Positions 475 to 49,736 of a stretch of 64,000 nt of DNA are shown here, piece after piece (position 1 is the stretch's first letter; each line of letters starts with the position of its first letter). The DNA is taken from contig JAVZHQ010000001.1 in NCBI GenBank assembly GCA_038998335.1, positions 672,609-736,608 of the forward strand, read 5' to 3'. Below the pieces are notes generated by a model. The model saw only the letters and a list, made by a program, of their open reading frames with translations. It was not told the DNA's origin and ran no database searches. The DNA comes from Candidatus Aenigmatarchaeota archaeon. GTDB taxonomy: Archaea; Aenigmatarchaeota; Aenigmatarchaeia; CG10238-14; SCSR01. The position numbers and the translations under genes are program-made.

Positions 475-2542
475 GCTCGATTGAAATTCCTAAACTGTAA
501 AATAGGAGTAGGCCAAAGAAAGAAACCATTCCATATACAAGAATTGCAGTAATCAAAGTTTTTCCTATTGTGTAATCCCTTGCAACTTTATCAAAACCGT
601 TTTCTATTCCGCTTAAAAGCATAGCAAGTAAAGCAACAGTTTCAACAGTATAAATGCCTATTGCCGCTTGAAGGACTGTAAGAGGAACTAATTCTTTAAA
701 ACTTCCTATTAGAATGTTTATAAAATTCTCTCCTCCTGTTAAAACGCCAAAACCGAGACTTTTCTCTATTTCTGCAAGCTTATCGGCAAGAATTCTCAAA
801 ACATTTATTATAAAAATTGTTAGAGAACCTATTATCCCACAAATAAGCGGAACTACAAAACTTGCTTGAAGCCTTATTGCGGATCTTGTGTTTTCTAACA
901 ATTCTCTTATCTTTAATTCGATAGAATGAACGTTATCCAAGTAGTTTGCTATTGTTCTTGCTATAACTCCTAGCAAAACTGTGCTTTTTTCGGAAGCGTC
1001 AGACAAAACCTTCATTATATCCTCTATAAGGCGAGAAGGAAAGTACCTTAAAATTCCATGCTTTTCGTCGAACAAAGCCTTTCTAAAAGTCATACCAAAA
1101 TTCCTTATGTTTATCAAAAGTTTTGTTAGGAATGAATGAATTGCCCTTTTCTGCATCCCAAGCTTTTGATACTCTTCTAAGCTTTTGTTTATCGCAACTT
1201 CTATAGGCATTCCTTCTGATAAAAAATTACCAAGAGTTACTAAGCCTGTTCTAAACTCGTCTTCTATGTTTTTAATCTGGTTTCTTATTTTTACTCTTTG
1301 GAAACTTCTAAAGTAAAAATAAGAAATTACCATAGCAGCAAAACCTGCTGTTATAGAAAAGGTTGAAAGCAAATTTTCTAAGTTCATCTCTGCTTCTTTT
1401 TTCAAAATAGCTTCTTTGGCTGTTTCTGATGCTACTGAAAGGGAAGTATAAAGGTCAATAAAGTGGAAAATTCCGTAAAGCATCATAAGCAAGCCTATAA
1501 GAAAAGAGAAGAAAATTATTGGGATATAAAGATTAGTTTTTCCTAACTTTAAAACAAAAAAATTCTCTCTTGGTAGTTCAGGGTGTTTAGAAATGTCTGG
1601 TGAAATAAAAGCTCCTGGTCTTTTCTTAAGTATTCTGTGGATGAAAAATAGGTTTAACAGCGGTAAAAGAACTGTATAACCTAAGATTAGCTGAAAAACA
1701 TTTACTTGCTGATGTAAAAAGATTGCTACCATAGGAAACATAACTATTCCAAGAGCTGGAAGCATTATGCCAAAAAGATGGATCAACATTAAAGGAGAGG
1801 AAATTTCCTCAACATAGAGTTTCATTCTTTCATGAGTTGATTCAAGAATATAACTTAAAGCTTTTCTTAAAGTTGCCTCTCTTCTTTCTTCTGTAGCTTC
1901 TCTTAAAGTTCCGTACAATAAATTTACCGAGCGAACAAAATCTTCGTTCCAAATTGCCCATTTTGGCATGTAATAACTTAAGGCTTCTTCAACTGTTGTA
2001 TACTTTCCAACTTGCAAATCCCACATAGCTTTTTTCATATCGTTTGTTATTGGCCCAGAAATGTGAGTAGTTACAAAGTTTACTGCACCTTCAAAAGTTG
2101 GATTAAGTTTTAAATAAATAACCATGTACAAGATTATTTTTATTGATTCATCCCCTGCCTGAATCCTAATAACTTGGGAAAGAAATGAAGGGTAAGTCAA
2201 GATGTACCAAAAGATTATAAAAGGTAAAATTGAAAGAAAAATTAAGGTTACAAAATCTTGAATTATCAAGGAAAACAAGGCAAAAACTATAAAGGAAAGG
2301 ATAAGAGCAAGGATTGAAGAAGAAAATACTCCTTCTGGGCTTGCTACGAGAGAAGAAAATGCTATATCTGTTTTAAGTTTTTCTTCCAAACTTTTTGGAG
2401 GTTTTATCCTTAACTTTTCTCCTATTTTACAAAACTTTTCGTAAAAAGTTTGTGGCTTTCTTGTTTTTTGCTCAGCTAGAAGGAAATCCAAATATTCCTT
2501 GGAAAAATACTTTTTTTCCTCTTCTTTTTTCTTTCTTATCAT
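467..2542 (-). CDS. TadC/FlaJ-family (T2SS-F domain) polytopic membrane protein, paralog of 17441..19486
   Basis: Multiple TM blocks; colinear similarity to 17441..19486 (IWDLETQRYFSVDDAL vs MWDLQVGKYTTVEEAL; FDEKIGAIKAYPSDLI vs FDEKHGILRYFPSRLI; GIENGEDRVGE vs GIENGFDKVAR). Longest ORF starts TTG at 2545; ATG at 2542 used. Confidence 0.6.
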   Translation of the reverse strand: MIRKKKEEEKKYFSKEYLDFLLAEQKTRKPQTFYEKFCKIGEKLRIKPPKSLEEKLKTDIAFSSLVASPEGVFSSSILALILSFIVFALFSLIIQDFVTLIFLSILPFIIFWYILTYPSFLSQVIRIQAGDESIKIILYMVIYLKLNPTFEGAVNFVTTHISGPITNDMKKAMWDLQVGKYTTVEEALSYYMPKWAIWNEDFVRSVNLLYGTLREATEERREATLRKALSYILESTHERMKLYVEEISSPLMLIHLFGIMLPALGIVMFPMVAIFLHQQVNVFQLILGYTVLLPLLNLFFIHRILKKRPGAFISPDISKHPELPRENFFVLKLGKTNLYIPIIFFSFLIGLLMMLYGIFHFIDLYTSLSVASETAKEAILKKEAEMNLENLLSTFSITAGFAAMVISYFYFRSFQRVKIRNQIKNIEDEFRTGLVTLGNFLSEGMPIEVAINKSLEEYQKLGMQKRAIHSFLTKLLINIRNFGMTFRKALFDEKHGILRYFPSRLIEDIMKVLSDASEKSTVLLGVIARTIANYLDNVHSIELKIRELLENTRSAIRLQASFVVPLICGIIGSLTIFIINVLRILADKLAEIEKSLGFGVLTGGENFINILIGSFKELVPLTVLQAAIGIYTVETVALLAMLLSGIENGFDKVARDYTIGKTLITAILVYGMVSFFGLLLFYSLGISIELG

Positions 2543-2599
2543 CAATTAATTTTTGGCTTTTTCTTGAATTAAATTTAAAAAAAGAAAGAAAAGAAGACA

Positions 2600-2881
2600 T
2601 TACTTTGCTAAAGTAATGTCTATGGTTGAAACATTCACTTTTGTTTTGTCTTCTAGTTCTCTTTCCTCTGTTCCTATCTCTATTGATTTTATTTTCACTC
2701 CTTCGACAAACCTTCTTCTTACTATTTCTGCAACGTCTACTGCTCTACTAATAGCTTTTCCTCTTGCCTTTATGTGAACCTCTGGCTTTCCGTCAGAGAA
2801 CTGAGTTATTACTCCTAACACATAAGCCATACTTGGTTTGCATTCGGTCGATGCTGCTTTGACAGCATCAATGTCCGACAA
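2600..2881 (-). CDS. albA: Alba (Sso10b-family) DNA/RNA-binding chromatin protein
   Basis: 93 aa; core [23 protein letters not shown] matches the Alba signature (IKARGRAISKAVDxxEIVR); start codon is TTG at 2881 (internal ATG would truncate the fold). Confidence 0.85.
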
Positions 2882-2923
2882 AGATTACATTGTCCTCAGT
2901 TTTTTCCTGTTTTTCTACCATTT

Positions 2924-3712
2924 CTATTCACCTCCTATTAATCTGTTTAATTTTTCCATTTTTTCCGGATAGTTAAAGCCTACAAGCTCCGAAAATCTCT
3001 TCATGGACTTATGGCTTATTACTAGCTCGTATTTTGGATTTTTTCCAAAACTATTCTTAGGTAATATTTTGTAAATAAACGATCTAATTCCTAAGGAAAA
3101 CAAAAGTTTTTGAATACCTTCGATTAGTTTTTTATCTGAATTGTAAATAACTATTTTATAGTTTCTTTTATATTTTTGTCTATTCTTATCGAAACTTTTA
3201 AATATAGTTACAGAACCTTCTGCGTCAGCAACACCTCTTATAAAACTTACAATTTCTTCATCAGTCCTCAAAGAAGATAAATCTAAAAATTTGAACAACT
3301 TTACCGCTTCTATAGAGTTTAAAAATATATACCATAAAAAGTTTCCATTACCGGTCCTGTATTTTTTAATCGTAACATTTAACCCGCTCCAGTTTTTAAG
3401 CTTTTCTTTCAATATTTGGGCGAATTCTTGGTTAGAAGTAGTTATATGAATGAAATTTTTTGCGATGTGTCCATTACCTTTTATCACACCAAACAGATAT
3501 GCTAACTCTGGACTCATACTTTTAGAAATAAGCTTTTTTGATTTTTTTTCACTGATTTTCTTTTTAGTTTCTTCAGTATGATGCTTACCCAACATAGGTC
3601 TTGGGTGTGTATGTACCTTACCACATTTTTTACATAAACAAAAATTATAACCACGAAAACTTGGAATCTTACTAACTAGTTTTCCAGGCGTTTCTGAGAT
3701 TTCTGTTTCCAT
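2924..3712 (-). CDS. Free-standing LAGLIDADG-type homing endonuclease-like protein with N-terminal Cys/His cluster and NUMOD3-like motif
   Basis: Two LAGLIDADG-type motifs (LAYLFGVIKGNG and FIRGVADAEGSV); GKHHTEETKKKISEKKSKK resembles a NUMOD3 DNA-binding motif; CLCKKCGKVHTH putative Zn site; ORF track start is GTG at 3721, ATG at 3712 used. Confidence 0.7.
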   Translation of the reverse strand: METEISETPGKLVSKIPSFRGYNFCLCKKCGKVHTHPRPMLGKHHTEETKKKISEKKSKKLISKSMSPELAYLFGVIKGNGHIAKNFIHITTSNQEFAQILKEKLKNWSGLNVTIKKYRTGNGNFLWYIFLNSIEAVKLFKFLDLSSLRTDEEIVSFIRGVADAEGSVTIFKSFDKNRQKYKRNYKIVIYNSDKKLIEGIQKLLFSLGIRSFIYKILPKNSFGKNPKYELVISHKSMKRFSELVGFNYPEKMEKLNRLIGGE

Positions 3713-3791
3713 TAAATACACACCCTGTGTTAGTTATTGAAATACTGTTAAACTTATTTTAATTTAGAGAAATATCTTTAAAAGCTTTTTC

Positions 3792-6700
3792 TTAATAGTA
3801 GTATTCTTCTTCTGGTTTTTTCCAGAGTTTTATCTTAAGATAACCAAACTTCCATAAAACTATGAAAATTCCAGCAACTACCCCAACAACCACTAAGATT
3901 ATTAAAATTGTTGAAAAGTCTGATGATGGTTTTATAAACCTTTGAAGTAATTCGTCTACAATTTGCCTTAAAGTTTGATACCTCCTATTAGCTTCATTAT
4001 ACTTTGATAAAGCAGTTGAATAATCTCCTTGATTTAGAGCATTCTTGGCTTCATTCAATAAGTTTTTAATTTGGCCGAGCTCTGACCATAATGTTGAGTT
4101 AACTTTATCTCCCAAACTTTCCATATCCTTTTCTAAGGAGCTTACTCTTGAGGTAAGGTTATTTATTTTGCTTTCCAATTCTTTTTGGGTTTGAGGACAA
4201 TCTTGAGAACAAGTTATTTCTTCACCAGGTTCACAAATTTTATTACCACAATAAAATCCTGGACAATCAGAGCAGCTCGGATAACTTTCTCCTTCTTCAC
4301 AGATTCCATTATTGTTGCATGTAACTGAAGGACAATCTCTTGGGCAAGTTGTTCTATTCTCGTCTATATTGCAAACGCCGTCACCACAATAACAATCTTT
4401 TGGACAAGAAGTTGAATTTTCTTCTACATCGCATACCCCATTTCCACATTTTTGCTCTACGCATAAGTTTAACGCTCTGTCACAAACTTTTCCTGTAGGA
4501 CAACCACAATCTAAACAACAATTATCTTTGTTTTCTCCTTTTGAAGATTCACACTTTCCATCCCCGCAAGAAGGTAAAATAGAAGTTACTTTTACTTTTA
4601 AACTTACTGTTTTTATCCCAGCATCACTTTCTATTCTAACATAACCTTCATATTCTCCTGTTCTAAACAAAGTGCCGATTATAGAATAAGTTTTTGATTT
4701 TGAAGGTTGAATAGTATCAGTACCATAAAAGTTTGTACTTGTGTTTTCCACTCCATAAACTTCTATGCTGTAAATAGTTACTGCTACCTTTCCGTTGTTT
4801 GTTAAAGTAATCTTTTGTTCAAACCTTTGACCAGAGACTGCTACAATTGAAATTTCTAAAGGCGAGACAGAAATTTTTGGTGTTTCTTTTATTGAAATAG
4901 AAACTGGTATGCTTATTGTTTTTCCAGCATATTTTACAAAAATTTTTCCGTTGAAATTCTTTTCACCGATTTCAAAAGTTAAAGAAACATTTTGGCTTTC
5001 ACCAACTTTAAGTTCTCTCTCAAAACTTATGCTGGTAAATTGTTTGATTTCATCTGAAGCTTCTACAAGCAAATCAGTTATATCGGAATTACCGATATTT
5101 TTTAAAGTTATGTTTGTTTTAAAAGTTTTATTTGGGTAGGATTCGCCAGAAATTGCTGAAGGAGTAACGTTAAGTAAAAAGTTTGGCTTTTCAAGACCGA
5201 AAGCTAGAACTTTTCCTCCTGTTGATTTACCACTAGCCAAAATCTCAACAAAAAATTGATCTAAATCTAAGCCAATAATTTCTGCCTGAAAATTTGTGCC
5301 ATAGTTTGTGAAATCTCCTTGTTTATATAAAGACAGATCGAAAACTTTCCATACTCTGTAACTAAGGTTTGCGTTTTGATCGCTAGAGGAAACCAATAAA
5401 GCTAATCTTTTTTGGTCTTTGTTCCAATCAGTTTGCTTCACATCTATAATAATTTCTCCAGGGACTATCAGTCCGTCCATTCTTTCAACAAGATTGTTGC
5501 TGACAACTTCTCTTGCGCTAATTTTAACTCCGGAAATTTGTATATTGTCAAATGGGATGTTATAGCTTTTTGGTAATTTTTCATTTATCACCCAGAACTT
5601 TCCGACATTAAGGTAAAGATTTGGAAAATAAGAAAAAGAGTATTGAGTTGTTGTATATCCTGGATAAGTGTAAAGAAAAGAAGTGGTAGAAGGTGTTAGA
5701 GGATTTCCAGATGAATCTTTTACATCAAGAAAAAGAAAAAATTCTTTTTCCTTGGTTGGCCATTCAGGTAAAAGTTTCCAGTTGATTGAATAGCTACCAT
5801 AATTTTCGTTAAGGATGTTTAAACCATAAGCAAAAACAAAAATTGAAGCGTTAAGGCTTGGTGGACTAGCTGAAACTTCGTAAGTATAAACACCAAGCTT
5901 TTCAGGAGCAACAAAACAAGTTTGGTTTATACAAACTGAGCCTGAAAAAGTGCAAGTACACATGAGATTGCCTGTTGAAATATCCTTTATTTTAGCTGTC
6001 TTACCTTCGCAATTATCGCCTTGAATAATTGCTTTTACTGTCTCACCCTTTCTTACTGCAGGAGTTCCTGAAAGAGTTCCTAATAATTGAAAGCTAGTAA
6101 TGTTACAAGGCAATGGTGGCAAAACTTTAACATAAGAAAAACAAGCAGTAGATTTTGGTTCTGAACCAATCTGGTACGGAATTGCAACTTTAAAGTAGGT
6201 TTCAATTTCTTTTTGAACAGTTGGATAATAACATTCTAAGCTTATTCCGTCTCTTGATAGACCTTGGTCAACTAAGTTGTCAACTGTTACTACTTCTTCT
6301 TCAAGATAATCAGCACACTGCTTATGTAGTTTATTATAAGTAATCACGCTTCTCCAAGTAATTGAAGTATCTTTTCCATTTTTCAGCTTGAGTGTAAAGT
6401 TTGCTTTTCTATCACTATAAACTGTTTTGCTAGAAGGCTCTATAACACAATAAGGTTCGTTTGGTATATCTTTAACTTCTATCTTAAATATCGGGGAGAA
6501 GACATCTCTGTTTTTATTTCTTAGGTGAATTCTGCAGGTCCAGTTTCCTGCTTTGTCGACAAATATTTTTCCTGTGTAGGTTTCTTTTATTTGATCCTCC
6601 ATAGTACTTGAAACACAAGGAGTTGACGGCCTTCCTACATAAGGATCACATTCGTCTATCCAACCTCTAACATCATTTTCATCTGGTGGAACTATACCTG

Positions 6701-8702
6701 GCGGAAAACAATGAAGATTTGTATGGCACCTATATTGTTCCCTACCACACTTTTCCGGACTTTCTAAGGTTTCCCAGAGTTGCCAAGTTACTGTCACTAA
6801 ACTATTGACTATTACTCCTGTTGGAGGATACTCTATCCTCCCTATAGAAAATGGCTCTGAAATATTAATAGTTATTGGTGCAGGACCTTCCTGCCCGGTT
6901 ATATTGATTGTTCTTGCTAGAGCATCATCCCACCATTCGTCTATCCTTCCATCTTTGTCTGCATCAAAATTTGAAATTCTCGTATGAGCCCAAATCATAA
7001 CTCTTTGATTTCCTGTTGTTATAGGATAGAAGGAAGCTGGAAGTTTGCATCGAACAGTTATATTTTTCTGTGGTGTTAAAGCTATTTCAGAAGTTAAAAC
7101 TTCACAGGTTGCACCTTCTGGACAACTTCCTCTTTCGTTTGCACAACCTCCTCTATTGTTTTTAGCATCAAAGTAAAGGTCTACTCTTCCTTTTCCGTCT
7201 CTAGTTTCCCATGGATTGTTAAAATCAGAAACGTTCCAAAATTCTACTCCCACAAACCAATCTGTTTGCTCCTTTGAACCAACATTTTTAATAACAATGT
7301 TTACAGTTATATTATAATTCTGAAAGACTTGAGCTGTTCCTTGAGTAATTTTGTTTACAGAAACTTCTTCTATCCATGAATCATACATAACGTTACATTC
7401 ACACTCACTAGAGTTTTTATTTTTATATTCCCTTACTTGGTAAGCTGAAGAATATTTTTCATACTTGTAGTACTCTGGCTTAGAACATTTTACTGGGTTT
7501 TCTGTGTTGTCAGGATAAACTCCAGTAAAGTAAGAGCAATCTACATGATACTTACAATTGTTATCACATGAATAGGGATTTTGGGACCAACCAGGAGGTT
7601 TTTCGTCACAGGCTTCATCAGCACCACATGCAAACTCGCATTGAGCTCCACCATTATTACAGTTTCTTTCTGTACCTCCACTACAAACTGTACAATTCAC
7701 GCATTTTTTTGTTGTATTATCACATCTCCATTTTCCACCTGACCAAATACAATGATTATTATCATCGCAAGGACAATCTTCACGATTTTGTTTACATACA
7801 CCAGTTTTTTTGCAACAGTAATAACCTGAAGCACAATCAGAGTCAGATTGGCAAGAAGTTAAACAATTACCATTTCTACAGGCATAAGGCGAACAATCTG
7901 TTGAATATAGAAAACAAGTTTCTCCACATTTTTTTCTAACAGTTCCATCGCATGTACTATAACCTACAGGTTTTTCATCACATTCCTCACTCGCACCACA
8001 AGCTGACTCACATACAATCTCAACATTACAACCAACTGTTTCACAATCCCAAATCCCTGTAAATTCTATGCAACTTTTAGGAGTACCATAACATCTTTTG
8101 TATTGATTTGAATATTTACACCCTGCTAATTCGCATCTTTCCTTTCTTGTCTGTTCATCAGAAATTTCATTATAGGAGTCACATGACTTAGGAGTACCTT
8201 TACAAATTAAAGAAGAGGGAGGATGGTACAGCCCATTCCTGTCACCAAATTTCTTCCATTGATAGGAACCTAGACATTCGATGCACTGCTTTTCGCTTTT
8301 ATCCCATACGCCCATGTATTTGTGTTCTTTACATCCCCAGTCCCAATAATCTATACTGACTACGCAAGGCTCACCATTCCATTTATTGACATCTGGGCAC
8401 CTATACTCTTCACAAGCACAAGTGTTTGGTACTTCTTCTGGTGGGATGCCATCAGGACAACTACTCATACCATAGTAAATATAACCTTCACACCATTCTC
8501 CAAAATCCTGGCACTCGTTATTTTTATTTATTAAACATCTAGAAGTTCCTGAAAGATCGATTACTGCTTCGAAACAATAACCACAACCTAACACACCTAT
8601 CCAGTCCCCAGCGCATCTATAGTGACAACCAGCCCTCGCATCAGTAAATAGAACTAAAAAAGTTAAGAAAAACGATAATAAAACTATTTTATACCATTTC
8701 AT
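3792..8702 (-). CDS. Giant (~1636 aa) cysteine-rich secreted surface protein with N-terminal signal peptide, tandem Cys repeats, coiled coil and C-terminal TM anchor
   Basis: Signal peptide MKWYKIVLLSFFLTFLVLFTDARAG; >100 Cys in EGF/laminin-like spacing; five ~21-aa CGxGxC..CPxDC repeats (nt ~4194..4568); heptad-rich segment then TM ILIILVVVGVVAGIFIVLW and cytoplasmic tail KKPEEEYYY; many N-x-S/T sequons. Longest ORF starts TTG at 8714. Confidence 0.75.
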   Translation of the reverse strand: MKWYKIVLLSFFLTFLVLFTDARAGCHYRCAGDWIGVLGCGYCFEAVIDLSGTSRCLINKNNECQDFGEWCEGYIYYGMSSCPDGIPPEEVPNTCACEEYRCPDVNKWNGEPCVVSIDYWDWGCKEHKYMGVWDKSEKQCIECLGSYQWKKFGDRNGLYHPPSSLICKGTPKSCDSYNEISDEQTRKERCELAGCKYSNQYKRCYGTPKSCIEFTGIWDCETVGCNVEIVCESACGASEECDEKPVGYSTCDGTVRKKCGETCFLYSTDCSPYACRNGNCLTSCQSDSDCASGYYCCKKTGVCKQNREDCPCDDNNHCIWSGGKWRCDNTTKKCVNCTVCSGGTERNCNNGGAQCEFACGADEACDEKPPGWSQNPYSCDNNCKYHVDCSYFTGVYPDNTENPVKCSKPEYYKYEKYSSAYQVREYKNKNSSECECNVMYDSWIEEVSVNKITQGTAQVFQNYNITVNIVIKNVGSKEQTDWFVGVEFWNVSDFNNPWETRDGKGRVDLYFDAKNNRGGCANERGSCPEGATCEVLTSEIALTPQKNITVRCKLPASFYPITTGNQRVMIWAHTRISNFDADKDGRIDEWWDDALARTINITGQEGPAPITINISEPFSIGRIEYPPTGVIVNSLVTVTWQLWETLESPEKCGREQYRCHTNLHCFPPGIVPPDENDVRGWIDECDPYVGRPSTPCVSSTMEDQIKETYTGKIFVDKAGNWTCRIHLRNKNRDVFSPIFKIEVKDIPNEPYCVIEPSSKTVYSDRKANFTLKLKNGKDTSITWRSVITYNKLHKQCADYLEEEVVTVDNLVDQGLSRDGISLECYYPTVQKEIETYFKVAIPYQIGSEPKSTACFSYVKVLPPLPCNITSFQLLGTLSGTPAVRKGETVKAIIQGDNCEGKTAKIKDISTGNLMCTCTFSGSVCINQTCFVAPEKLGVYTYEVSASPPSLNASIFVFAYGLNILNENYGSYSINWKLLPEWPTKEKEFFLFLDVKDSSGNPLTPSTTSFLYTYPGYTTTQYSFSYFPNLYLNVGKFWVINEKLPKSYNIPFDNIQISGVKISAREVVSNNLVERMDGLIVPGEIIIDVKQTDWNKDQKRLALLVSSSDQNANLSYRVWKVFDLSLYKQGDFTNYGTNFQAEIIGLDLDQFFVEILASGKSTGGKVLAFGLEKPNFLLNVTPSAISGESYPNKTFKTNITLKNIGNSDITDLLVEASDEIKQFTSISFERELKVGESQNVSLTFEIGEKNFNGKIFVKYAGKTISIPVSISIKETPKISVSPLEISIVAVSGQRFEQKITLTNNGKVAVTIYSIEVYGVENTSTNFYGTDTIQPSKSKTYSIIGTLFRTGEYEGYVRIESDAGIKTVSLKVKVTSILPSCGDGKCESSKGENKDNCCLDCGCPTGKVCDRALNLCVEQKCGNGVCDVEENSTSCPKDCYCGDGVCNIDENRTTCPRDCPSVTCNNNGICEEGESYPSCSDCPGFYCGNKICEPGEEITCSQDCPQTQKELESKINNLTSRVSSLEKDMESLGDKVNSTLWSELGQIKNLLNEAKNALNQGDYSTALSKYNEANRRYQTLRQIVDELLQRFIKPSSDFSTILIILVVVGVVAGIFIVLWKFGYLKIKLWKKPEEEYYY

Positions 8703-9690
8703 TTTTAACACCAATCAAAATAATCCGATTATCATAAGAATAGTAAAATACGACATTTTTACCGTTTCTCGCTATTACCGAATTTTCACATTTTTTGCAT
8801 GGAGTTTGTGTTAATTTAGTTTTATCAACTGGTATGACAACAAATTTATTTAGGAAATTACCACAAACTTCATATTGGCAGTCGATTTTATAACCTGCAA
8901 ACTCTTTATCAAAATAATAAAGTAGTGTTAAATTTGCTCCTTCGCAGAAAGAGGATACCTCTACATATTTATTAAATTCTAAATTATCTATCGGACAATT
9001 AAAAACTTTTCTAAAAGATAATTCAGCTCTATCTTTTTCTTGAAGATTGTCTATCAAGATAGGTGGATATAAAGAATAGGTACCCATGTCTACCCATATC
9101 TTATAATTTCCATCAGTACACTTTACAACCAAGACAATAGTTGTAAAGTTTTTAATGTATGAGGAAAAATCGATAGAATGATTTTTAATTTCACAAGTAG
9201 AAAAAGATGGATATTTTTCTTTTATCTCTCTAAAAAGATAATCTAAAAAATTACTTTCTGAAACTTTTTTAAGCAAATTTGATTGGAAATCAAAAATAAA
9301 TGTCTTCAATTTATTTTCATAGACGCAATAAAATGATAATTGATATTCATTCTCGTATTCTTTTGAATCATAAAATTTACAATTTTCCAATTCTTCCCAT
9401 ACTTCTGGTTCTTCCCAAAGAAAGCTCCATCCATTCAGCTTGTAACTAATATTTCCACTTTTATACTCTGTATAGAAAGGCCTTCCGTTACAAACAAGCC
9501 AAAATTCACCATTATCGCCAAAACCATTTATTTTTTCTTTGACAATCTTACAAAATTCCAACTTTTCTTCAAGTAAATTTATCACTCTATTTCTAATATT
9601 ATTTGGAACTACTAAAAAGTACCAATAACAAATCACGATAATGACTATACCAAGTATTAAGAAAATCAAAGTTAATATCTTAATATTCAT
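8689..9690 (-). CDS. Membrane-anchored (N-terminal TM) Cys-containing extracellular protein, 333 aa, unknown function; co-transcribed with giant surface protein
   Basis: ATG start; N-terminal TM LILGIVIIVICYWYFLVV; stop overlaps start of 3792..8702 gene by 14 nt. Confidence 0.45.
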   Translation of the reverse strand: MNIKILTLIFLILGIVIIVICYWYFLVVPNNIRNRVINLLEEKLEFCKIVKEKINGFGDNGEFWLVCNGRPFYTEYKSGNISYKLNGWSFLWEEPEVWEELENCKFYDSKEYENEYQLSFYCVYENKLKTFIFDFQSNLLKKVSESNFLDYLFREIKEKYPSFSTCEIKNHSIDFSSYIKNFTTIVLVVKCTDGNYKIWVDMGTYSLYPPILIDNLQEKDRAELSFRKVFNCPIDNLEFNKYVEVSSFCEGANLTLLYYFDKEFAGYKIDCQYEVCGNFLNKFVVIPVDKTKLTQTPCKKCENSVIARNGKNVVFYYSYDNRIILIGVKNEMV

Positions 9691-9774: not shown

Positions 9775-11109
9775 ATGGCAAAATGCCCTTATTGTGGTTC
9801 AGAAAAAACCACATCTTACAAAACACCAGAAGGAGAAAAGGGTCATTATTGCTATGATTGCAAAAGAGAATTTAAAACTATAGGAGATAAAATTCTAACC
9901 GGAATTTTTAAAAAGAAAGAAACAAAAAAAGAAGGCGAGGAAGGAAAAAAGAAAGAGAAAAGAACTTCTATAATTCCTGCTTTGTTTCTTTTAGCTGCTC
10001 TTGTAATAACTTTTCTTGTTCCTCTTGACCATACAACAAAAACTCTTATTGTTGCAGCAATGGGTATATTTGTAATGGTGGTTTATGGTTTTTTCAGTCT
10101 TGCAAGCTTTGGGTTTATAATCTTAATAATTTACTTGGTTTTTAACTTGCCAGTAGTACATGCTGAACTTGAAAAATATGAAGTTTATGAGCATTTTAAA
10201 AGAATTCAGCAAGAGTTTTGCATAGGCACTTGCATTTTATCAAATGCTTTTTATACAAGAGCAGACCCAAGGGCTTATTGTGAATCTCAATGTGGAGTTG
10301 TTCAAATAAGTAAAGTAGCAGGAGCTTGCACAGAATGCTTAACTTATGAAAAGTATGAAAGAATATACCCTGCAAGAGAAGGTTCTTCTGAAATCGTTGA
10401 TATAAACTTGAAAATGGCAAAATCGAACACGATAGCAAAAAATGTTTGGGTTGAAGTCTTTACTGATAAAGAAAATTTACCTGCAGAAATAAGTAAATGC
10501 AGCTTTAGCGAAACTTGCGAGCTTAGAAGTGAGGAAGAAAAAAGAGTAATAGCTACTTTTAATGAGAATGATGTGAAATGTGAAGGCTCTTTTTTCAAGT
10601 ACAGAATAAAAGTTGGCTATGATTTTGAAACAAAATCAGACAACTCTTTTGATTTGGTAAAAGAGTTTACAGGAACTATAACTGAAATTAAAAGTCCATC
10701 CTCAGAAGGGCCTTTAAGCGTAAGTATAGGAGGGCAAAAATACTATGTAGTTGGAGAAGATGATTATGCCTATATTTCAATATATGTTTCAAACGAAGGA
10801 AAAGGTTCTGTTAAAATTAAAGAGATAAAAGTTTATCAAATTCCACCATACGGACAAGAAGAATTAAGCTTTACTTATGATTGTACAAAAGGCTATATTT
10901 TCAGTAAAGCCGATTACTATTATTCAGAAAAAACTTTAACTGTTAGTGGAACTATTTCTTCACTTGGAAAAAATGAAAAGGATGCTATAATTTGCAAGTT
11001 TTCACTTCCTAGCGACATTCCTTCTTCAAGGCTAACTTACAGTTTTAAAGCAGAAGTAAGTTATTCTTATGAGCTAGAGAATAGCTACAGTATACCATGC
11101 AAAAAATAG
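9775..11109 (+). CDS. Membrane protein with N-terminal cytoplasmic zinc ribbon (CPYCG..17..CYDCK), 2-3 TM helices and a large Cys-rich, beta-rich extracellular domain
   Basis: CxxC..CxxC at residues 4-29; Lys/Glu linker; TM segments IIPALFLLAALVITFLV / LIVAAMGIFVMVVYGFF / FIILIIYLVFNL; ATG start. Confidence 0.5.
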   Translation: MAKCPYCGSEKTTSYKTPEGEKGHYCYDCKREFKTIGDKILTGIFKKKETKKEGEEGKKKEKRTSIIPALFLLAALVITFLVPLDHTTKTLIVAAMGIFVMVVYGFFSLASFGFIILIIYLVFNLPVVHAELEKYEVYEHFKRIQQEFCIGTCILSNAFYTRADPRAYCESQCGVVQISKVAGACTECLTYEKYERIYPAREGSSEIVDINLKMAKSNTIAKNVWVEVFTDKENLPAEISKCSFSETCELRSEEEKRVIATFNENDVKCEGSFFKYRIKVGYDFETKSDNSFDLVKEFTGTITEIKSPSSEGPLSVSIGGQKYYVVGEDDYAYISIYVSNEGKGSVKIKEIKVYQIPPYGQEELSFTYDCTKGYIFSKADYYYSEKTLTVSGTISSLGKNEKDAIICKFSLPSDIPSSRLTYSFKAEVSYSYELENSYSIPCKK

Positions 11110-11110: not shown

Positions 11111-11494
11111 TTAGCAACCACAAGCTTGTGCACATTTTTGGTAATCGGTATAACCTGCATATCTACAAACCTCATCCATAGTAACTTTTCCGTCAATTTC
11201 GCCTAAAATACCATCTATACATCTCGTGTTTGGGATTAAAGCTAGAGGAACTGTGTAATTTACATTTGACTTACCGTCAGACTTGCAATTAGTTGACCAA
11301 GCTTTACATGCTGTTTTAAAGATTGTTTCAGGATCAGAACAAGGTGGACAGCATACGATGTACCACCACCAGATAGCCCCTATAAAGAAAACTAAACATA
11401 TAACAAAAATAAAACAATAGAAAATCTTAAGAATAGTTTTTACTCTGTTGTGCAAATGAAAAGGTGCTAACCTCCACAACATTTTTGTCGGCAA
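11111..11494 (-). CDS. Cys-rich membrane-anchored protein with EF-hand-like Ca-binding loop, paralog of 11467..11781
   Basis: TM ILKIFYCFIFVICLVFFIGAIWWWYIV then CCPPCSDPE...ALIPNTRCIDGILGEIDGKVTMDEVCRYAG aligning with neighbour; N-terminus/start uncertain (28-nt overlap with upstream gene). Confidence 0.4.
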   Translation of the reverse strand: MPTKMLWRLAPFHLHNRVKTILKIFYCFIFVICLVFFIGAIWWWYIVCCPPCSDPETIFKTACKAWSTNCKSDGKSNVNYTVPLALIPNTRCIDGILGEIDGKVTMDEVCRYAGYTDYQKCAQACGC

Positions 11495-11781
11495 TCTGAT
11501 ACTCCAGCATAACTACAGGCTTCTTCCATTGTTACCTTACCATCACCATCAATATCTACACATCTTGTGTCTGGAATTAAAGCTGGAGGAACTATGTAAT
11601 CAGCTGGGTTATCCTGACAGTGGGAAGTTGCCCAACCTCTACAGGCTTGGGTAATGACATACTCTGGATCAGGGCAATGTGGGAAAAACCACAGATACCA
11701 AACAACTACTGCAAGCAAAACAACTACTGCAATTATCAGAATCACAAGATATTCAACTGGTAAAGCAATTCCTTTGCTCAT
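11467..11781 (-). CDS. Pilin-like (class III signal peptide) Cys-rich protein with canonical EF-hand/dockerin-like loop DIDGDGKVTMEE
   Basis: MSKG|IALPVEYLVILIIAVVVLLAVVVWYLWFF (KG then hydrophobic helix with Glu); C-terminal domain with 9 Cys and 12-residue DxDxDGxVxxxE loop. Confidence 0.5.
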   Translation of the reverse strand: MSKGIALPVEYLVILIIAVVVLLAVVVWYLWFFPHCPDPEYVITQACRGWATSHCQDNPADYIVPPALIPDTRCVDIDGDGKVTMEEACSYAGVSDCRQKCCGG

Positions 11782-11812
11782 AAAATAAATTTCGATTTTT
11801 TTATTCTTAAAG

Positions 11813-12277: not shown

Positions 12278-12281
12278 TCTT

Positions 12282-12833: not shown

Positions 12834-12837
12834 TCCT

Positions 12838-16905: not shown

Positions 16906-16906
16906 T

Positions 16907-47594: not shown

Positions 47595-49736
47595 TTAAAA
47601 TATTACTTTATAGATTTTTAATTCTGCGTTTCCATAAACATACTCAAAATGCTTTAAGCCTTGGCCATTCCAGAAGAACATTCTTGTGAATAAACAATCT
47701 CTAACTTTTGGAGGCATAAAAATAACATAGCTATAACTTGAATCAACCCAAAGCAAACCATTAATTAATTGAGCGTTAGTCTGATTTGCATAACTAACAT
47801 ACTTATAGCCTTGATAAGTAGGATAATAAATTTCTTCGATTAAGTATCTGTTATTTAATATTGGATAAAGAGTGCAATTTTCTCCTGCTAAACATTGACT
47901 AAAAGATTTTCCTGGAGAAGGAGTTAAAGCAACACCAATGTCTCTACTGAAATAGTAGAGTGGGTTTCCGGAAGGATCAAAATCAGAGAAAGTAGTTTGC
48001 CAGAAGCACCAGACATAAGTGTTAGCAGGCTCAACATAGCAAGCTCCGGGTGAGCCTGGAGGAGCTCTAAAGCCGCCAAAGAAATTCATCCAAACATATT
48101 TCCCAATCAAATCAGCGCTTGCTATTATGTACATATCGCTAACAGGGTTGCAAGCATCTTTCGGAACTTTATCGCCAAAAGCTTTTTTTACCTTTTCACA
48201 ATCTTCAAAACTTAATTCCTTGTATTTTTTAAGAATGTCAATTGCTTCTTCTTCACTTGAAGTTGAAAAAATTCTTCCCATGTCTTGAATTCTTATGTTA
48301 TGGTTATAAGGGATACACATTCCTGGAGTACAATGTGCTCCATCTGCATGAACTTTTAAAGGCTTACCTTTATCGTAAGAATAACCTGCAATTATATGAC
48401 CAGGATCCCACCAGGTCACTATCAAAGAATCTTTGTCTGCGTTTTTAACTAACCAGTCTAAAGCGTTAATCCAATTTTGGCTTATTTCCATCCCTCTCGA
48501 AGCGTTACCTACTTGAATTGCGGTAGAAACAAAAATTAAAGAAAGAATTGCTATTGCTCCAAAGATTGTTGCTCCAATAAAATCTCTTTTCAAATATTTT
48601 ACTAAATTTCCTACAACATAGCCTGCTGTCGCAGCTGCTGCAACTGAAAAAGAAAGCGCAAACCTTATTCCGCTTAAAATCATGTAAAAAGTTGCGAAGT
48701 ACCATAAAATTAGAAAAATTTCTGTAAGTTCAAGCTTGGATTTTCTGTAAAGTTTAAGGATCAGTAAAGGAATAATTAACAAAGAAATAAGAAATGGAGC
48801 GTAGCCTATTCTTCCTACGATTTCTAAAAATCCTGAAGGTGAGAAAACGTTTATTCTTTGAAGTTCTGCTACCGAAATGTTAACTAGCAAACCTCTGCTA
48901 GGGTCCATAAAACCAAGCATCACAAAAAACGCAGAGAGTATGTTACCCCAACCCAAAAGAAATGCTACGATGTTTGTTGGAATTAAGATTATGAAATAAG
49001 GAATTAAAAGACCTTTAATTTCTTGAATCGGCTTTCCTATCTCGATTATCAATTTTCTTTGATGTATCATTTCCTCTATGATTCTGAAAAAGAAAAGAAA
49101 CACTAAGCAAGCAGTAAGAAGAATTAAAATAAACCAACCTCCACCCCAGTTCCAAACAAAAAGTAGGTTAGAAACTATTGCGAAAATGTAAAAAGGGATT
49201 GATTTTTTCTTCAGGGCAAGGAAAATTGACAGAACGCAAAGAAAAGTGTAAAAAACTACTACAGGATCGTTATCACAATAACCTGCCATACTTACGCCAA
49301 TAAAAGTTGGAGTTAGAACAGCAAACAAAGCAGTAGCCAAGCCTCCCCATTTATTTGACAAAGATTTACCTAAAAGAAAAGCTACGATTGCTCCTAAAAC
49401 AACCATTATCAAAGGGGAAATTTTAGCTATGTAAATAAAGGAAATGCTACCAAATAAAAATTGTGCAATTTTGTAAAATAAGATCATTGTGTACATAAAA
49501 CCTAATTGGAAGTCAAAAGGTCTTCCTGGAGGATAATAACTCTGAATATCCCATTTTAAAGGGAAAAAATTATTTTCCATTATTAATAGGGAATATCTAT
49601 AGTACCACCAAGGATCGTAATCTAAAATTGTCTGAGCATCTAAGGTAGAAAGTCTGACATAAACTGAAAGATAAATGATTAAAAATAACACAAAAAAAAC
49701 TATCAAATTTTTTATTACAGAATCTCCGATTAACAT
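47595..49736 (-). CDS. aglB: Archaeal oligosaccharyltransferase AglB (STT3 family)
   Basis: 713 aa, ~13 N-terminal TM helices, WWDxG-type motif (TWWDPGHIIAGY), C-terminal soluble domain. Confidence 0.8.
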   Translation of the reverse strand: MLIGDSVIKNLIVFFVLFLIIYLSVYVRLSTLDAQTILDYDPWWYYRYSLLIMENNFFPLKWDIQSYYPPGRPFDFQLGFMYTMILFYKIAQFLFGSISFIYIAKISPLIMVVLGAIVAFLLGKSLSNKWGGLATALFAVLTPTFIGVSMAGYCDNDPVVVFYTFLCVLSIFLALKKKSIPFYIFAIVSNLLFVWNWGGGWFILILLTACLVFLFFFRIIEEMIHQRKLIIEIGKPIQEIKGLLIPYFIILIPTNIVAFLLGWGNILSAFFVMLGFMDPSRGLLVNISVAELQRINVFSPSGFLEIVGRIGYAPFLISLLIIPLLILKLYRKSKLELTEIFLILWYFATFYMILSGIRFALSFSVAAAATAGYVVGNLVKYLKRDFIGATIFGAIAILSLIFVSTAIQVGNASRGMEISQNWINALDWLVKNADKDSLIVTWWDPGHIIAGYSYDKGKPLKVHADGAHCTPGMCIPYNHNIRIQDMGRIFSTSSEEEAIDILKKYKELSFEDCEKVKKAFGDKVPKDACNPVSDMYIIASADLIGKYVWMNFFGGFRAPPGSPGACYVEPANTYVWCFWQTTFSDFDPSGNPLYYFSRDIGVALTPSPGKSFSQCLAGENCTLYPILNNRYLIEEIYYPTYQGYKYVSYANQTNAQLINGLLWVDSSYSYVIFMPPKVRDCLFTRMFFWNGQGLKHFEYVYGNAELKIYKVIF

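What the first reader, a model, noticed from the sequence alone, without database searches (positions are those of the whole stretch)
3792..8702. Giant cysteine-rich surface protein with internal tandem repeats, coiled-coil stalk and C-terminal membrane anchor
The ~1636-aa protein has a cleavable signal peptide and a huge ectodomain with Cys spacing reminiscent of EGF/laminin/furin-like modules, plus very many N-x-S/T sequons. It then has five ~21-aa CG(D/N)GxC..EN..(S/T)CP(K/R)DC repeats, an ~85-aa heptad segment, one TM helix and a short cytoplasmic tail ending YYY. It is co-oriented with, and overlapped by, an upstream membrane-anchored protein gene (8689..9690), and sits next to the pilus locus and an AglB-containing glycosylation island. 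Proteins of this kind are candidate host-cell adhesins or S-layer-like components in episymbiotic archaea. The repeat type and the YYY tail are not features I can assign to a known family.
Basis: partly seen in the sequence, partly recalled or inferred. Interest (0 to 1): 0.7.

Follow-up and report, generated by a model that had tools for sequence, protein, structure and literature searches.

The report
Surface spike protein with swappable head
A tiny symbiotic archaeon (Aenigmatarchaeota) encodes a real 1636-residue membrane-anchored surface protein whose cysteine-rich outer tip has been swapped wholesale between near-identical strains, which makes it a good but unproven candidate for what the cell uses to recognise or hold on to a partner.

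Summary
The gene is real. It is an intact 1636-aa ORF (window 3792-8702, minus strand), and the identical protein occurs in independent assemblies, including a 938-kb contig. Most of the described anatomy holds: signal peptide, 98 Cys, five short Cys repeats, a helical segment, one TM helix, a ...EEEYYY tail, and a 14-nt overlap with an upstream membrane-protein gene.

- No EGF, laminin or furin-like module is detectable.
- The "85-aa heptad stalk" is three separate amphipathic helices.
- The Cys repeat is not unique. It recurs in many DPANN/CPR surface proteins, although Pfam has no model for it.
- AglB lies about 39 kb away, not next door.

New findings:
- Residues 391-1375 form an array of about eight Ig-like beta-sandwiches. 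The first (D1) is a mobile module otherwise found on DPANN secreted subtilases.
- The family is very rare: 52 hits among 1.84 billion cluster representatives.
- The head is mosaic. Against a hot-spring relative the gene is 95.6% identical in DNA from codon 231 onward and unrelated before it. The junctions sit on a conserved CxxACGAxExCDEKxPG motif.
- The upstream partner gene travels with the head, even next to a protein that has a different body.

Best reading: a membrane-anchored surface spike or S-layer-like adhesin with an exchangeable recognition head. Whether it also forms the S-layer lattice is unresolved.

The parts
8689..9690 (-). Partner gene: 333-aa protein with an N-terminal TM anchor and 13 Cys. 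Its last 14 nt overlap the start of the giant gene.
   Evidence: The partner is conserved and overlaps the following head-bearing gene in L001, L006, L002 and L014, and is followed by an overlapping signal-peptide ORF in L013. It has no Pfam, NCBIfam, PADLOC or PDB match.
8625..8702 (-). Start codon and putative Sec signal peptide (aa 1-26, MKWYKIVLLSFFLTFLVLFTDARA|G).
   Evidence: (hydropathy). Judged by eye; no signal-peptide predictor was available.
8025..8624 (-). Head cassette 1 (aa 27-226): Cys-rich and hypervariable. It contains the GVWDxSxxxCxxCxG motif and two CxGTPKSC...CExxGC modules.
   Evidence: Only 25-37% identical to relatives whose shaft is 70-99% identical. There is no DNA similarity to L005 upstream of gene nt 691. 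It resembles the truncated second copy in L001 (48%). AlphaFold2 confidence is mostly below 50, except aa 170-210.
7533..8024 (-). Head cassette 2 (aa 227-390). It is bounded by two copies of the junction motif C(E)xACGA(S/D)ExCDEKxPG (aa 227-245 and 355-372).
   Evidence: 87% identical to L005 and 72% to L001_full, but only 26% to P0003. The giant-versus-L005 breakpoint sits on the motif. No Pfam match even at E<=10.
6843..7532 (-). D1 domain (aa 391-620): a conserved beta-sandwich with an insert and a DxDxDG-like loop (DADKDGRIDE, aa 580-589).
   Evidence: pLDDT 85-96. It is the family-defining module in the exhaustive search and occurs in about 45 other proteins, mostly after Peptidase_S8 and before dockerin. 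Fold searches return only generic Ig-like matches.
4578..6842 (-). Shaft (aa 621-1375): about seven further beta-sandwich (Ig-like) domains, rich in sequons.
   Evidence: AlphaFold2 secondary structure is all-beta. Confident blocks are aa 710-740, 870-940 and 1085-1375. Foldseek hits to tandem ASH/HYDIN/CEP192-type Ig arrays have E 1e-16 to 1e-10. Pfam hits to CARDB and HYDIN-VesB Ig are sub-threshold. dN/dS is 0.07-0.20. Sequon density over aa 391-1375 (D1 plus shaft) is 17 per 1000 aa.
4194..4577 (-). Five 4-Cys mini-repeats CG(D/N)GxC-x3-5-E(N)-x3-CPxDC (aa 1376-1503).
   Evidence: The module recurs, in one to seven copies, between ectodomain and TM helix in relatives and in other DPANN/CPR surface proteins. 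No Pfam or NCBIfam model matches. AlphaFold2 confidence is low.
3936..4193 (-). Membrane-proximal helical segment (aa 1504-1589): three amphipathic helices. The third carries the conserved QGDYxxAxxxYxxA motif.
   Evidence: pLDDT 78-93; heptad analysis; conservation in P0008, P0010, P0004 and P0052.
3849..3926 (-). Single transmembrane helix (aa ~1593-1618).
   Evidence: Kyte-Doolittle peak of 3.27. Helix in the model at aa 1597-1618.
3792..3848 (-). Cytoplasmic tail KFGYLKIKLWKKPEEEYYY plus the stop codon (3792-3794).
   Evidence: The tail is basic, then acidic, then Tyr. YYY is conserved only in close relatives.

Best explanation
The gene encodes a type I membrane-anchored surface spike, in effect an S-layer-like adhesin.

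Inferred steps
- After Sec export the protein stays anchored by its C-terminal TM helix.
- The three membrane-proximal amphipathic helices probably drive oligomerisation.
- The five disulfide-locked mini-repeats and about eight glycosylated Ig-like beta-sandwiches form a conserved shaft tens of nanometres long.
- The sequon-poor, disulfide-rich N-terminal head (aa 27-390) sits at the distal end and acts as the recognition or binding module.
- The translationally coupled upstream membrane protein acts on or with the head, for example as a folding or assembly factor or as a co-receptor subunit.

Shown
- The head is built from two cassettes that are exchanged between strains by recombination at a conserved CxxACGAxExCDEKxPG junction motif, while the shaft evolves under strong purifying selection.
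- Also shown are the domain anatomy, the rarity of the family, the conserved synteny, the conservation gradient, the sharp recombination junction, and the linkage of the partner gene to the head.
For: 1. Topology and anatomy. Signal peptide, one C-terminal TM helix and a short tail. D1 and the C-terminal beta-sandwiches are modelled with pLDDT 80-96.

2. Fold matches. Hits are only to multi-Ig ectodomains and structural arrays: HYDIN/CFAP/CEP192 ASH arrays, leptin receptor, PTP-delta, ICAM, Bap, and the Haloferax S-layer 7ptp at E 3e-8. No enzyme fold appears.

3. Conservation gradient. aa 1-200 are 25-37% identical to relatives whose aa 400-1636 are 70-88% identical. Shaft dN/dS is 0.07-0.20.

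4. Sharp junction. Against L005, DNA identity is 95.6% over gene nt 691-3733 (dS 0.05-0.26), with no DNA similarity upstream and 25% aa identity for aa 131-230. The breakpoint lies on the CESACGA(S/D)ExCDE motif. A second junction lies at aa ~355-420 against P0003 and L006.

5. Mosaic combinations of head cassettes among six alleles. L001 carries both a full gene and a truncated copy with the window-type head.

6. Glycan pattern. Sequons run at 17-18 per 1000 aa in shaft and stalk but 5.5 per 1000 in the head, a glycan-shielded shaft with a bare tip. An AglB N-glycosylation island lies in the same window.

7. Partner gene. It is conserved and overlaps the head-bearing gene in the window, L001, L006 and L002. 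In L014 the downstream protein shares the head motifs but has a wholly different body.

8. Context. Type IV pilus-like loci lie on both sides. Such loci commonly include large, C-terminally anchored, Cys-containing 'S-layer-like' or adhesin proteins (PMC4858521). Greater divergence of the outward-facing surface is also reported for colossal Ig-rich archaeal S-layer proteins (bioRxiv 10.64898/2026.08.21.746120).
Against: - There is no experimental or expression data. Surface exposure, oligomeric state, glycosylation and binding are all inferred.
- The head is modelled with low confidence (pLDDT mostly below 50), so its fold and any binding site are unknown.
- The sharp junction rests on one very close pair (window versus L005). 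The wider mosaic rests on six alleles, because the family is so rare.
- A variable outer face with a conserved inner part is equally expected of a lattice-forming S-layer protein under viral or competitor pressure. 'Adhesin' therefore cannot be separated from 'S-layer' with these data.
- No host is known for this organism.
- The head similarity to the L014 protein is weak (26% identity, pairwise E 8e-7, largely motif-level).
Confidence: 0.55

Rival explanations
1. It is the main S-layer protein of this archaeon. The conserved Ig-rich core would form the two-dimensional lattice. The Cys repeats, helices and TM helix would form the stalk that holds the lattice above the membrane. The variable head would simply be the outer face, diversifying under virus or competitor pressure rather than acting as a dedicated binding module.
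For: - The architecture (tandem Ig-like domains, membrane-proximal element, TM helix, short tail, Cys residues, more divergent outer face) parallels the single-polypeptide colossal S-layer proteins of Thermoproteota. Its C-terminal third parallels SlaB, which has Ig domains, a coiled coil and a TM helix (bioRxiv 10.64898/2026.08.21.746120, section 7).
- Foldseek hits include the Haloferax S-layer protein 7ptp (E 3e-8) and SbsB.
- Very strong purifying selection on aa 621-1375 (dN/dS 0.07-0.10) fits lattice contacts.
- Sequon density is four times the background of the window.
- There is a single copy in the window, in conserved synteny next to Alba.
Against: - No Pfam or NCBIfam S-layer family matches, and there is no PDB sequence hit.
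- 6% Cys, and 13% in the head, is far from the usual low-sulfur composition of S-layer proteins (criteria quoted in bioRxiv 10.1101/2021.04.28.441871).
- The family is confined to a handful of genomes, although Aenigmatarchaeota are widely sampled.
- Relatives carry quite different heads on the same anchor (a beta-helix head in P0010). Several other surface proteins use the same Cys-repeat + TM module. Both point to one member of a toolkit of spikes rather than the wall protein.
- The helical segment is short (three helices of 22-30 aa) compared with known S-layer stalks.
Confidence: 0.3
2. It is an accessory component of the flanking type IV pilus-like machinery, for example an envelope-spanning anchor or collar through which the filament passes, or a filament-associated tip or adhesin. 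It would not be an independent spike.
For: - The gene lies between two pilus-type loci: an ATPase, a TadC-like platform and pilin-like genes upstream, and a paralogous TadC-like gene plus pilin-like genes downstream.
- This arrangement is conserved in L001 and L006.
- A 284-aa protein in the downstream cluster carries the same Cys repeats and TM anchor.
- PMC4858521 lists such large C-terminally anchored proteins as recurrent extra components of archaeal pilus loci.
Against: - The protein has a Sec-type rather than a class III (pilin) signal, so it cannot be a filament subunit.
- Alba and, in this genome, a homing-endonuclease gene separate it from the downstream locus.
- More distant family members (L003, L011) and the L014 pair were not seen in pilus contexts, within the limits of short contigs.
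- Head swapping is not explained by a purely structural collar.
Confidence: 0.1
3. It is a scaffold for extracellular enzymes. The D1 domain, shared with DPANN secreted subtilases that carry dockerins, would recruit proteases to the cell surface, in the manner of the protease-bearing stalk of Staphylothermus tetrabrachion.
For: - D1 occurs in about 45 proteins, most of them Peptidase_S8 subtilases with dockerin repeats.
- The CxGTPKxC...CExxGC head motif also appears as an insert in those subtilases.
- The tetrabrachion precedent comes from the author's own knowledge plus a mention.
Against: - No cohesin or dockerin is detectable in the giant protein.
- A shared domain is evidence of a common module toolkit, not of interaction.
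- There is no protease gene in the conserved neighbourhood.
Confidence: 0.05

Closest known systems
Colossal Ig-rich, C-terminally anchored S-layer proteins of Thermoproteota (PySLP of Pyrobaculum arsenaticum; bioRxiv 10.64898/2026.08.21.746120)
   Same: A single very large polypeptide with a signal peptide, a long tandem array of Ig-like domains, a membrane-proximal element, one C-terminal TM helix and a short cytoplasmic tail. Both contain Cys residues, and in both the outward-facing part is more divergent than the membrane-facing part.
   Different: No sequence relationship was detected here. The membrane-proximal element is made of Cys mini-repeats plus three helices rather than a beta-hairpin. 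The tail is basic, then acidic, then Tyr (…KKPEEEYYY), not basic ending in Lys. The distal end is a 13%-Cys head exchanged by recombination. The organism is a DPANN archaeon, not a member of Thermoproteota.
SlaB (Sulfolobales S-layer stalk protein) and Staphylothermus tetrabrachion
   Same: The C-terminal third (Ig-like domains, then amphipathic helices, then a C-terminal TM helix) has the SlaB layout. Tetrabrachion is likewise a protein of about 1500 aa that combines a distal region, a helical stalk and a TM anchor in one chain (as summarised; partly the author's own knowledge).
   Different: The helical part here is only about 86 aa in three segments, against more than 100 to 500 aa of continuous coiled coil. 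There is no sequence hit to any solved chain. Cys repeats lie between the Ig domains and the helices. A separate N-terminally anchored partner protein replaces the SlaA/SlaB division of labour.
Type IV pilus-locus-associated 'S-layer-like' proteins of archaea (e.g. arCOG05471; Makarova et al. 2016, PMC4858521)
   Same: A large secreted protein encoded inside a pilus locus, with a single C-terminal TM domain and conserved cysteines thought to form disulfides.
   Different: Membership of those arCOGs could not be tested with these tools. The described examples come from Thermoproteales, Thaumarchaeota and Euryarchaeota. No head-cassette exchange or coupled partner gene is described for them.
Exchangeable receptor-binding tips of phage tail fibres and polymorphic bacterial adhesins or toxins (analogy, from the author's own knowledge)
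   Same: A conserved shaft with a distal module replaced by recombination at a conserved junction sequence, often together with a small adjacent gene specific to the tip (a tail-fibre chaperone or an immunity protein).
   Different: This is a cellular, membrane-anchored archaeal protein. No viral relative was found in IMG/VR. The partner gene lies upstream and encodes a membrane protein.
SPEARE giant surface proteins of Nanohaloarchaeota (from the author's own knowledge; the paper was listed but not read)
   Same: Giant secreted proteins of DPANN archaea that have been proposed to mediate host contact.
   Different: SPEARE proteins carry protease, adhesion and restriction-endonuclease-like domains and are far larger. 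None of those domains was found here.

Membership tests
Curated archaeal S-layer protein families (Pfam/NCBIfam S-layer models) | A significant match to an S-layer family profile | tested here: not met
   The hmmscan of the full protein against Pfam-A and NCBIfam at E<=0.1 lists no S-layer family. The profile and the single sequence find no PDB chain.
PySLP-like colossal S-layer proteins | Tandem Ig-like domains plus a single C-terminal TM helix | tested here: met
   The AlphaFold2 models are all-beta from aa 391 to 1375, and fold hits are to Ig arrays. The TM helix lies at aa 1593-1618.
PySLP-like colossal S-layer proteins | A conserved membrane-proximal beta-hairpin and a basic C-terminal tail ending in Lys (bioRxiv 10.64898/2026.08.21.746120) | tested here: not met
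   The membrane-proximal region consists of five Cys repeats plus three helices. The tail is KIKLWKKPEEEYYY.
PySLP-like colossal S-layer proteins | Detectable sequence or profile homology to PySLP and its relatives | not tested
None of the 52 hits of the exhaustive profile search was examined for this.
SlaB-type stalk proteins | Ig-like domains followed by a long trimeric coiled coil and a C-terminal TM helix | tested here: inconclusive
   The domain order matches. However, the helical part is three short helices without a continuous heptad register. The oligomeric state is not testable here. There is no sequence hit to solved chains.
PGF-CTERM and other archaeosortase/exosortase C-terminal sorting signals | A signature motif (e.g. 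PGF) immediately before the TM helix, a very short basic tail, and an NCBIfam CTERM model hit | tested here: not met
   No CTERM model appears in the NCBIfam scan. The sequence before the TM helix is KPSSDFS, and the tail is 18 aa long with an acidic stretch.
EGF, laminin-EGF and furin-like Cys-rich modules | A profile match and the characteristic 6- or 8-Cys spacing | tested here: not met
   The head (aa 27-390), scanned on its own against Pfam at E<=10, gave 0 families. The full protein gave none either.
Myxococcus-type cysteine-rich repeat / DUF4215 | A profile match to TIGR02232 or PF13948 | tested here: not met
   The repeat regions of the giant protein and of P0008, scanned alone against Pfam at E<=10, gave 0 families. 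NCBIfam gave none.
CARDB / ASH (HYDIN-VesB-CFAP65-like) / choice-of-anchor D Ig-like domains | A profile match above the curated cut-off, plus the fold | tested here: inconclusive
   All sequence matches are below cut-off: CARDB 20.1 bits against 22.7, HYDIN_VesB 17.2 against 25.5, choice_anch_D 17.2 against 45. Fold-level matches to ASH/HYDIN/CEP192 arrays are strong, with E down to 4e-16.
Pilus-locus-associated S-layer-like proteins (arCOG05471-like; PMC4858521) | Encoded in a type IV pilus locus, with a single C-terminal TM helix and conserved Cys | tested here: met
   Pilus genes flank the gene. The TM helix and the Cys residues are present.
Pilus-locus-associated S-layer-like proteins (arCOG05471-like; PMC4858521) | Membership of the arCOG profile | not testable with these tools
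Class II fusogens (HAP2/fusexin) | A three-domain class II fold with a fusion loop | tested here: not met

The most novel reading that the evidence does not exclude
The N-terminal head together with its translationally coupled partner gene may be a mobile host-recognition cassette. On this reading it is exchanged by recombination at the conserved CxxACGAxExCDEKxPG junction, not only among Aenigmatarchaeota strains but also between DPANN archaea and CPR-like bacteria. In L014 and L013 the partner precedes, with the same overlap, a downstream ORF: in L014 a protein with the same head motifs but an unrelated body, in L013 a signal-peptide ORF cut by the contig end. The cassette would then set which host cell an episymbiont can attach to, as a cellular counterpart of swapping phage tail-fibre tips.
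Probability: 0.2. Interest if true: 0.8.

Novelty: new variant of a known kind. Interest (0 to 1): 0.55.

Why it matters
How DPANN archaea recognise and attach to their hosts is largely unknown at the molecular level. This locus offers a concrete, testable candidate. It is a rare surface spike with a strongly conserved shaft. Its bare, disulfide-rich tip has been replaced wholesale between strains that are otherwise about 96% identical in DNA across the rest of the gene. A dedicated partner gene follows the tip rather than the shaft.

If the tip proves to be the host-binding module, allele typing of this one region could predict host range in metagenomes. It would also explain strain-level partner switching.

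The analysis also defines three recurrent extracellular modules of DPANN/CPR proteins that Pfam and NCBIfam do not cover: the D1 domain, the CGDGxC...CPxDC stalk repeat, and the CGAxxECDEK junction motif.

If the protein instead turns out to be the S-layer protein, it would be the first S-layer candidate described for this clade of Aenigmatarchaeota, and an unusually cysteine-rich one.

Tried and rejected
- Assembly chimera or frameshift: rejected. The identical protein occurs in independent assemblies and is colinear with its homologues.
- Viral origin of the window: rejected. RadA with inteins, RPA-like, Alba and AglB genes are present, and no relatives were found in IMG/VR.
- A paralogous second giant gene (38002-42861): rejected. 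It is RadA with three inteins.
- EGF/furin-like or Myxococcus-type repeats: no profile matches.
Pfam, NCBIfam, PADLOC and PDB sequence searches were empty or sub-threshold, and fold searches gave only Ig-like arrays.
- DNA-level tandem repeats behind the Cys repeats: none.
- Extra head copies or silent cassettes within this window: none by tblastn. L001 does carry one.
- AFDB fold search: the library was unavailable.
- Viral scan with the deep alignment A3: no searchable conserved stretch.
- Metagenome scan: only two further distant loci.
- Literature search for 'DPANN + cysteine-rich + surface protein': no paper.
- The head and the Cys repeats could not be modelled confidently (pLDDT below 50).
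Full report
**1. The observation**

The window carries one long ORF on the minus strand, 3792..8714. The first ATG, at 8702, gives a 1636-aa protein.

It is not an assembly artefact.
- The exact protein is encoded on four contigs, including a 938,630-bp contig (GCA_044343295.1) and an independent Logan assembly of run SRR27170999.
- Residues 84-1367 are 100% identical in a third assembly.
- Homologues of 1654-1675 aa from other metagenomes are colinear with it.

Most of the described anatomy is there.
- The N-terminus looks like a Sec signal (MKWYK, 14 hydrophobic residues, TDARA|G). This was judged by eye and by hydropathy.
- There are 98 cysteines (6.0%), against 1.2% in the other ORFs of the window. 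51 lie in aa 1-400 and 23 in aa 1379-1502.
- Five 18-21-aa repeats of the form CG(D/N)GxC...E(N)...CPxDC start at aa 1379, 1419, 1439, 1462 and 1485.
- One TM helix lies at aa ~1593-1618, followed by the tail KIKLWKKPEEEYYY.
- The upstream gene 8689..9690 overlaps the start codon by 14 nt, with GGTG just upstream of the ATG. This suggests translational coupling.

Four points need correcting.
- The head matches no EGF, laminin or furin-like profile, even at E<=10.
- Sequons number 23, against 15.6 +/- 3.6 expected from the protein's own composition (p~0.03). Their density is nevertheless four times that of the other ORFs in the window.
- The "85-aa heptad segment" is three helices (1504-1533, 1536-1557, 1561-1589; pLDDT 78-93). 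Each has a good a/d pattern, but there is no continuous register.
- AglB (47595..49736) is real but lies about 39 kb away.

**2. The organism and the neighbourhood**

The window is archaeal. It encodes RadA with three inteins, an RPA-like protein, Alba and AglB.

Genome records holding the closest relatives of the giant protein are titled Candidatus Aenigmatarchaeota, a DPANN lineage. Fragments of this same organism sit in NCBI bins labelled Conexivisphaerales and Micrarchaeia, so bin labels are unreliable here.

The gene order is conserved in the window, L001, L006, L008 and L009. It runs:
- a divergently transcribed 444-aa Zn-ribbon membrane protein;
- the 333-aa partner;
- the giant gene;
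- Alba;
- a 692-aa polytopic protein;
- small proteins.

In this genome a LAGLIDADG endonuclease gene is inserted between the giant gene and Alba.

Type IV pilus-like loci lie on both sides.
- One side has small proteins with class III-type signal peptides, a 681-aa platform protein and a T2SSE ATPase.
- The 692-aa protein on the other side is a 32%-identical paralogue of that platform protein. In L001 it is followed by more pilin-like genes, a VWA protein, and a 284-aa surface protein that carries the same Cys repeats and TM anchor.

**3. What the protein is made of**

No curated family matches above threshold in Pfam, NCBIfam or PADLOC, and no solved structure matches by sequence.

The family is very rare.
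- There are 4 hits among 5.8 billion clusters.
- There are 52 hits among 1.84 billion representatives, using a profile of aa 390-1380.
- There are 4 loci in 185,579 species genomes.
- There are 2 loci in JGI metagenomes and none in IMG/VR.
- Only P0002, P0003, L005, L006, P0008 and, more distantly, P0010 and P0004 share the overall architecture.

Most of the 52 hits share only one module, here called D1 (aa 391-620).
- D1 typically follows a Peptidase_S8 subtilase and precedes dockerin repeats in secreted proteins. In some proteins it sits at the mature N-terminus.
- AlphaFold2 models D1 at pLDDT 85-96 as a beta-sandwich.
- D1 contains a DxDxDG-like loop (DADKDGRIDE, aa 580-589). From sequence alone this looks like a calcium-binding site.

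The rest of aa 621-1375 is all-beta, with confident Ig-like domains at aa 710-740, 870-940 and 1085-1375. Fold searches return only multi-Ig ectodomains and structural arrays, and no enzyme fold.
- Foldseek gives ASH/HYDIN/CFAP/CEP192 arrays at E 4e-16 to 1e-10, plus integrins, alpha-2-macroglobulins, titin and SbsB.

The Cys repeat is not specific to this family. A profile of the C-terminal 262 aa finds it in 69 proteins of Pacearchaeota, Woesearchaeota, Altiarchaeota, Levyibacteriota (CPR), Kofleriaceae and others. Of the eight retrieved and read, three place it between an ectodomain and a C-terminal TM helix. Relatives have from one copy (P0010) to seven (P0008).

The helical segment, with its QGDYxxAxxxYxxA motif, the TM helix and an acidic Tyr-containing tail recur in P0008, P0010, P0004, P0049 and the much smaller P0052. 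The literal YYY ending is confined to close relatives.

**4. The most informative result: the head is a swappable mosaic**

Identity to relatives is 25-37% for aa 1-200 but 70-88% for aa 400-1636.

The closest relative, L005 (an Aenigmatarchaeota MAG from the JZ-1 hot spring), shows this most sharply.
- DNA identity is 95.6% over gene nt 691-3733, which is aa 231-1244. There dS is 0.05-0.26 and dN/dS is 0.08-0.33.
- No DNA similarity is detectable upstream of nt 691.
- Residues 131-230 are only 25% identical.
- The switch falls on the motif CESACGA(S/D)ExCDE(K)xPG, which both sequences retain.

A second copy of this motif (CEFACGADEACDEKPPG, aa 355-372) marks where similarity to P0003 and L006 resumes.

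All-against-all comparison of the heads shows a combinatorial pattern.
- The window's first cassette (aa 1-248) resembles the truncated second copy in L001 (48%) and L006 (32%).
- The window's second cassette resembles L005 and the full-length L001 gene (87% and 72%).
- L005's first cassette resembles that of the full-length L001 gene, while its shaft is of the window type.
- L001 carries both a full-length gene and, just upstream, a truncated head-only copy behind the partner gene.

The same short CGAxxECD motif also precedes D1 in many unrelated D1 proteins.

The shaft, by contrast, is under strong purifying selection, with dN/dS 0.07-0.12 against L001 and P0003. The head carries only 2 of the 23 sequons, 5.5 per 1000 aa against 17-18 per 1000 in shaft and stalk.

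**5. The partner gene goes with the head**

The 333-aa protein has an N-terminal TM anchor and 13 Cys, and matches nothing in any library. It precedes and overlaps the head-bearing gene in the window, L001, L006 and L002.

Its two more distant homologues are informative.
- In L014, P0006 (36% identity, 96% coverage) is followed, with an 11-nt overlap, by a Cys-rich protein of at least 1076 aa. That protein shares the head motifs in the same order: GKWDxSxxxCxxCxG, CxGTPxxC and CExACGASExCDxK (pairwise E 8e-7). It has no D1 and no Ig shaft, and it ends in a T4SS-pilin-like membrane domain.
- In L013, P0007 lies on a 64-kb contig with bacterial genes (NusA, trigger factor, ClpP, PlsY). It is again followed by an overlapping signal-peptide ORF, which is cut by the contig end.

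**6. Mechanism proposed**

Shown:
- a type I topology;
- a conserved Ig-like shaft;
- a stalk of Cys repeats and helices;
- a head exchanged by recombination at conserved junction motifs;
- a coupled partner gene linked to the head;
- a location inside a pilus and surface-structure island.

Inferred:
- The protein projects from the membrane as an oligomeric spike.
- The glycan-poor, disulfide-rich head is the distal binding module.
- Its exchange changes binding specificity, or evades something that targets it.
- The partner helps fold, present or complement the head.

I put 0.55 on this spike/adhesin reading.

The main rival (0.3) is that this is the lattice-forming S-layer protein and the head is simply its outer face.
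- In favour: the architecture parallels single-chain colossal Ig-rich S-layer proteins, whose exposed surface is likewise the most divergent.
- Against: the extreme Cys content, the narrow distribution, the interchangeable heads on a common anchor (a beta-helix head in P0010), and the presence of other proteins with the same anchor module.

The data cannot settle the choice. Minor rivals are a pilus-machinery accessory (0.1) and an enzyme scaffold acting through D1 (0.05).

**7. Comparison with what is known, and novelty**

Archaeal pilus loci are already known to encode large, C-terminally anchored, Cys-containing "S-layer-like" or adhesin proteins (PMC4858521). Ig-rich anchored giants are now structurally characterised as S-layers in Thermoproteota. 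The kind is therefore known.

What is new is this particular family, which is built from modules with no curated model:
- the head cassettes;
- the junction motif;
- D1;
- the Cys stalk repeat;
- the helical anchor module.

Also new are the demonstrable head swap between near-identical strains and the head-linked partner gene.

I rate it a new variant of a known kind, with interest 0.55. The most novel reading that the evidence does not exclude is a mobile head-plus-partner host-recognition cassette shared between DPANN archaea and CPR-like bacteria. I give that a probability of about 0.2; it would be of high interest if true.

Noticed in passing
window 38002-42861 (-), with 42895-43905 (-): The other giant ORF of the window (1619 aa) is RadA interrupted by three inteins with homing-endonuclease domains. 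An OB-fold RPA-like gene lies just upstream of it.
   Followed up: partly
window 2924-3721 (-): A free-standing LAGLIDADG/NUMOD3 homing-endonuclease gene is inserted between the giant gene and Alba. It is absent at this position in the relatives L001, L002 and L006, where Alba follows the giant gene directly.
   Followed up: partly
window 11111-21723 (-) and 79-2545 (-): This is a type IV pilus-like island. It holds several small proteins with class III-type signal peptides, a 733-aa membrane protein, a 681-aa TadC/FlaJ-like platform protein and a T2SSE ATPase. On the other side of the giant gene lies a 32%-identical paralogous platform protein (467-2545), followed by another pilin-like gene.
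   Followed up: partly
L001 1165-2910 (also P0018): This is a truncated, head-only paralogue of the giant gene, 581 aa with a signal peptide and no TM helix. It sits between the partner gene and a 150-aa membrane-protein gene, upstream of the full-length gene. It carries the window-type first cassette. Relative to P0018, from another sample, it has a 19-aa tandem duplication.
   Followed up: partly
L007 7823-10849; P0009, P0011-P0016 and others: DPANN-type secreted subtilases carry the D1 domain and dockerin repeats. Some also have the CxGTPKxC...CExxGC Cys motif inserted in the protease domain. The same extracellular module toolkit is therefore shared between these proteases and the giant protein.
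   Followed up: partly
L014 1971-6225 and L013 8001-9217: Homologues of the partner protein occur next to, and overlap, a different Cys-rich giant with a T4SS-pilin-like C-terminus (L014). They also occur on a contig with clearly bacterial genes: NusA, trigger factor, ClpP and PlsY (L013). This hints at exchange of the cassette between DPANN archaea and CPR-like bacteria.
   Followed up: partly
window 6933-6962 (giant aa 580-589): A DxDxDG-like loop (DADKDGRIDE) in D1 is conserved as QDAGNNGNAGNDWW in other D1 proteins. From sequence alone it looks like a calcium-binding site.
   Followed up: no
window 43983-57698: This is an N-glycosylation and polysaccharide island. It encodes a radical-SAM/B12 enzyme, GT2 and GT4 glycosyltransferases, AglB/STT3 (47595-49736), a methyltransferase, an NAD-dependent epimerase/dehydratase, a PMT-family mannosyltransferase, a Glycos_transf_4-family (PF00953) transferase and a flippase-like Polysacc_synt protein.
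   Followed up: partly
P0001 and P0005 (NCBI records): Fragments that are 99-100% identical to this locus are deposited in bins labelled Conexivisphaerales and Micrarchaeia, while close relatives are labelled Aenigmatarchaeota. The taxonomic labels of these bins are therefore inconsistent.
   Followed up: no
window 9775-11109 (+): A divergently transcribed 444-aa protein has an N-terminal CxxC...CxxC zinc ribbon, TM helices and a Cys-containing beta-rich C-terminal part. It is conserved in synteny next to the partner gene (L006, L008-L010). Its function is unknown.
   Followed up: no
L001 14889-15740: A 284-aa surface protein in the downstream pilus-like cluster has a signal peptide, a CARDB-like domain, three of the same CGNGxC...CPxDC repeats, a TM helix and a short basic tail. 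It uses the same anchor module as the giant protein on a small scale.
   Followed up: no
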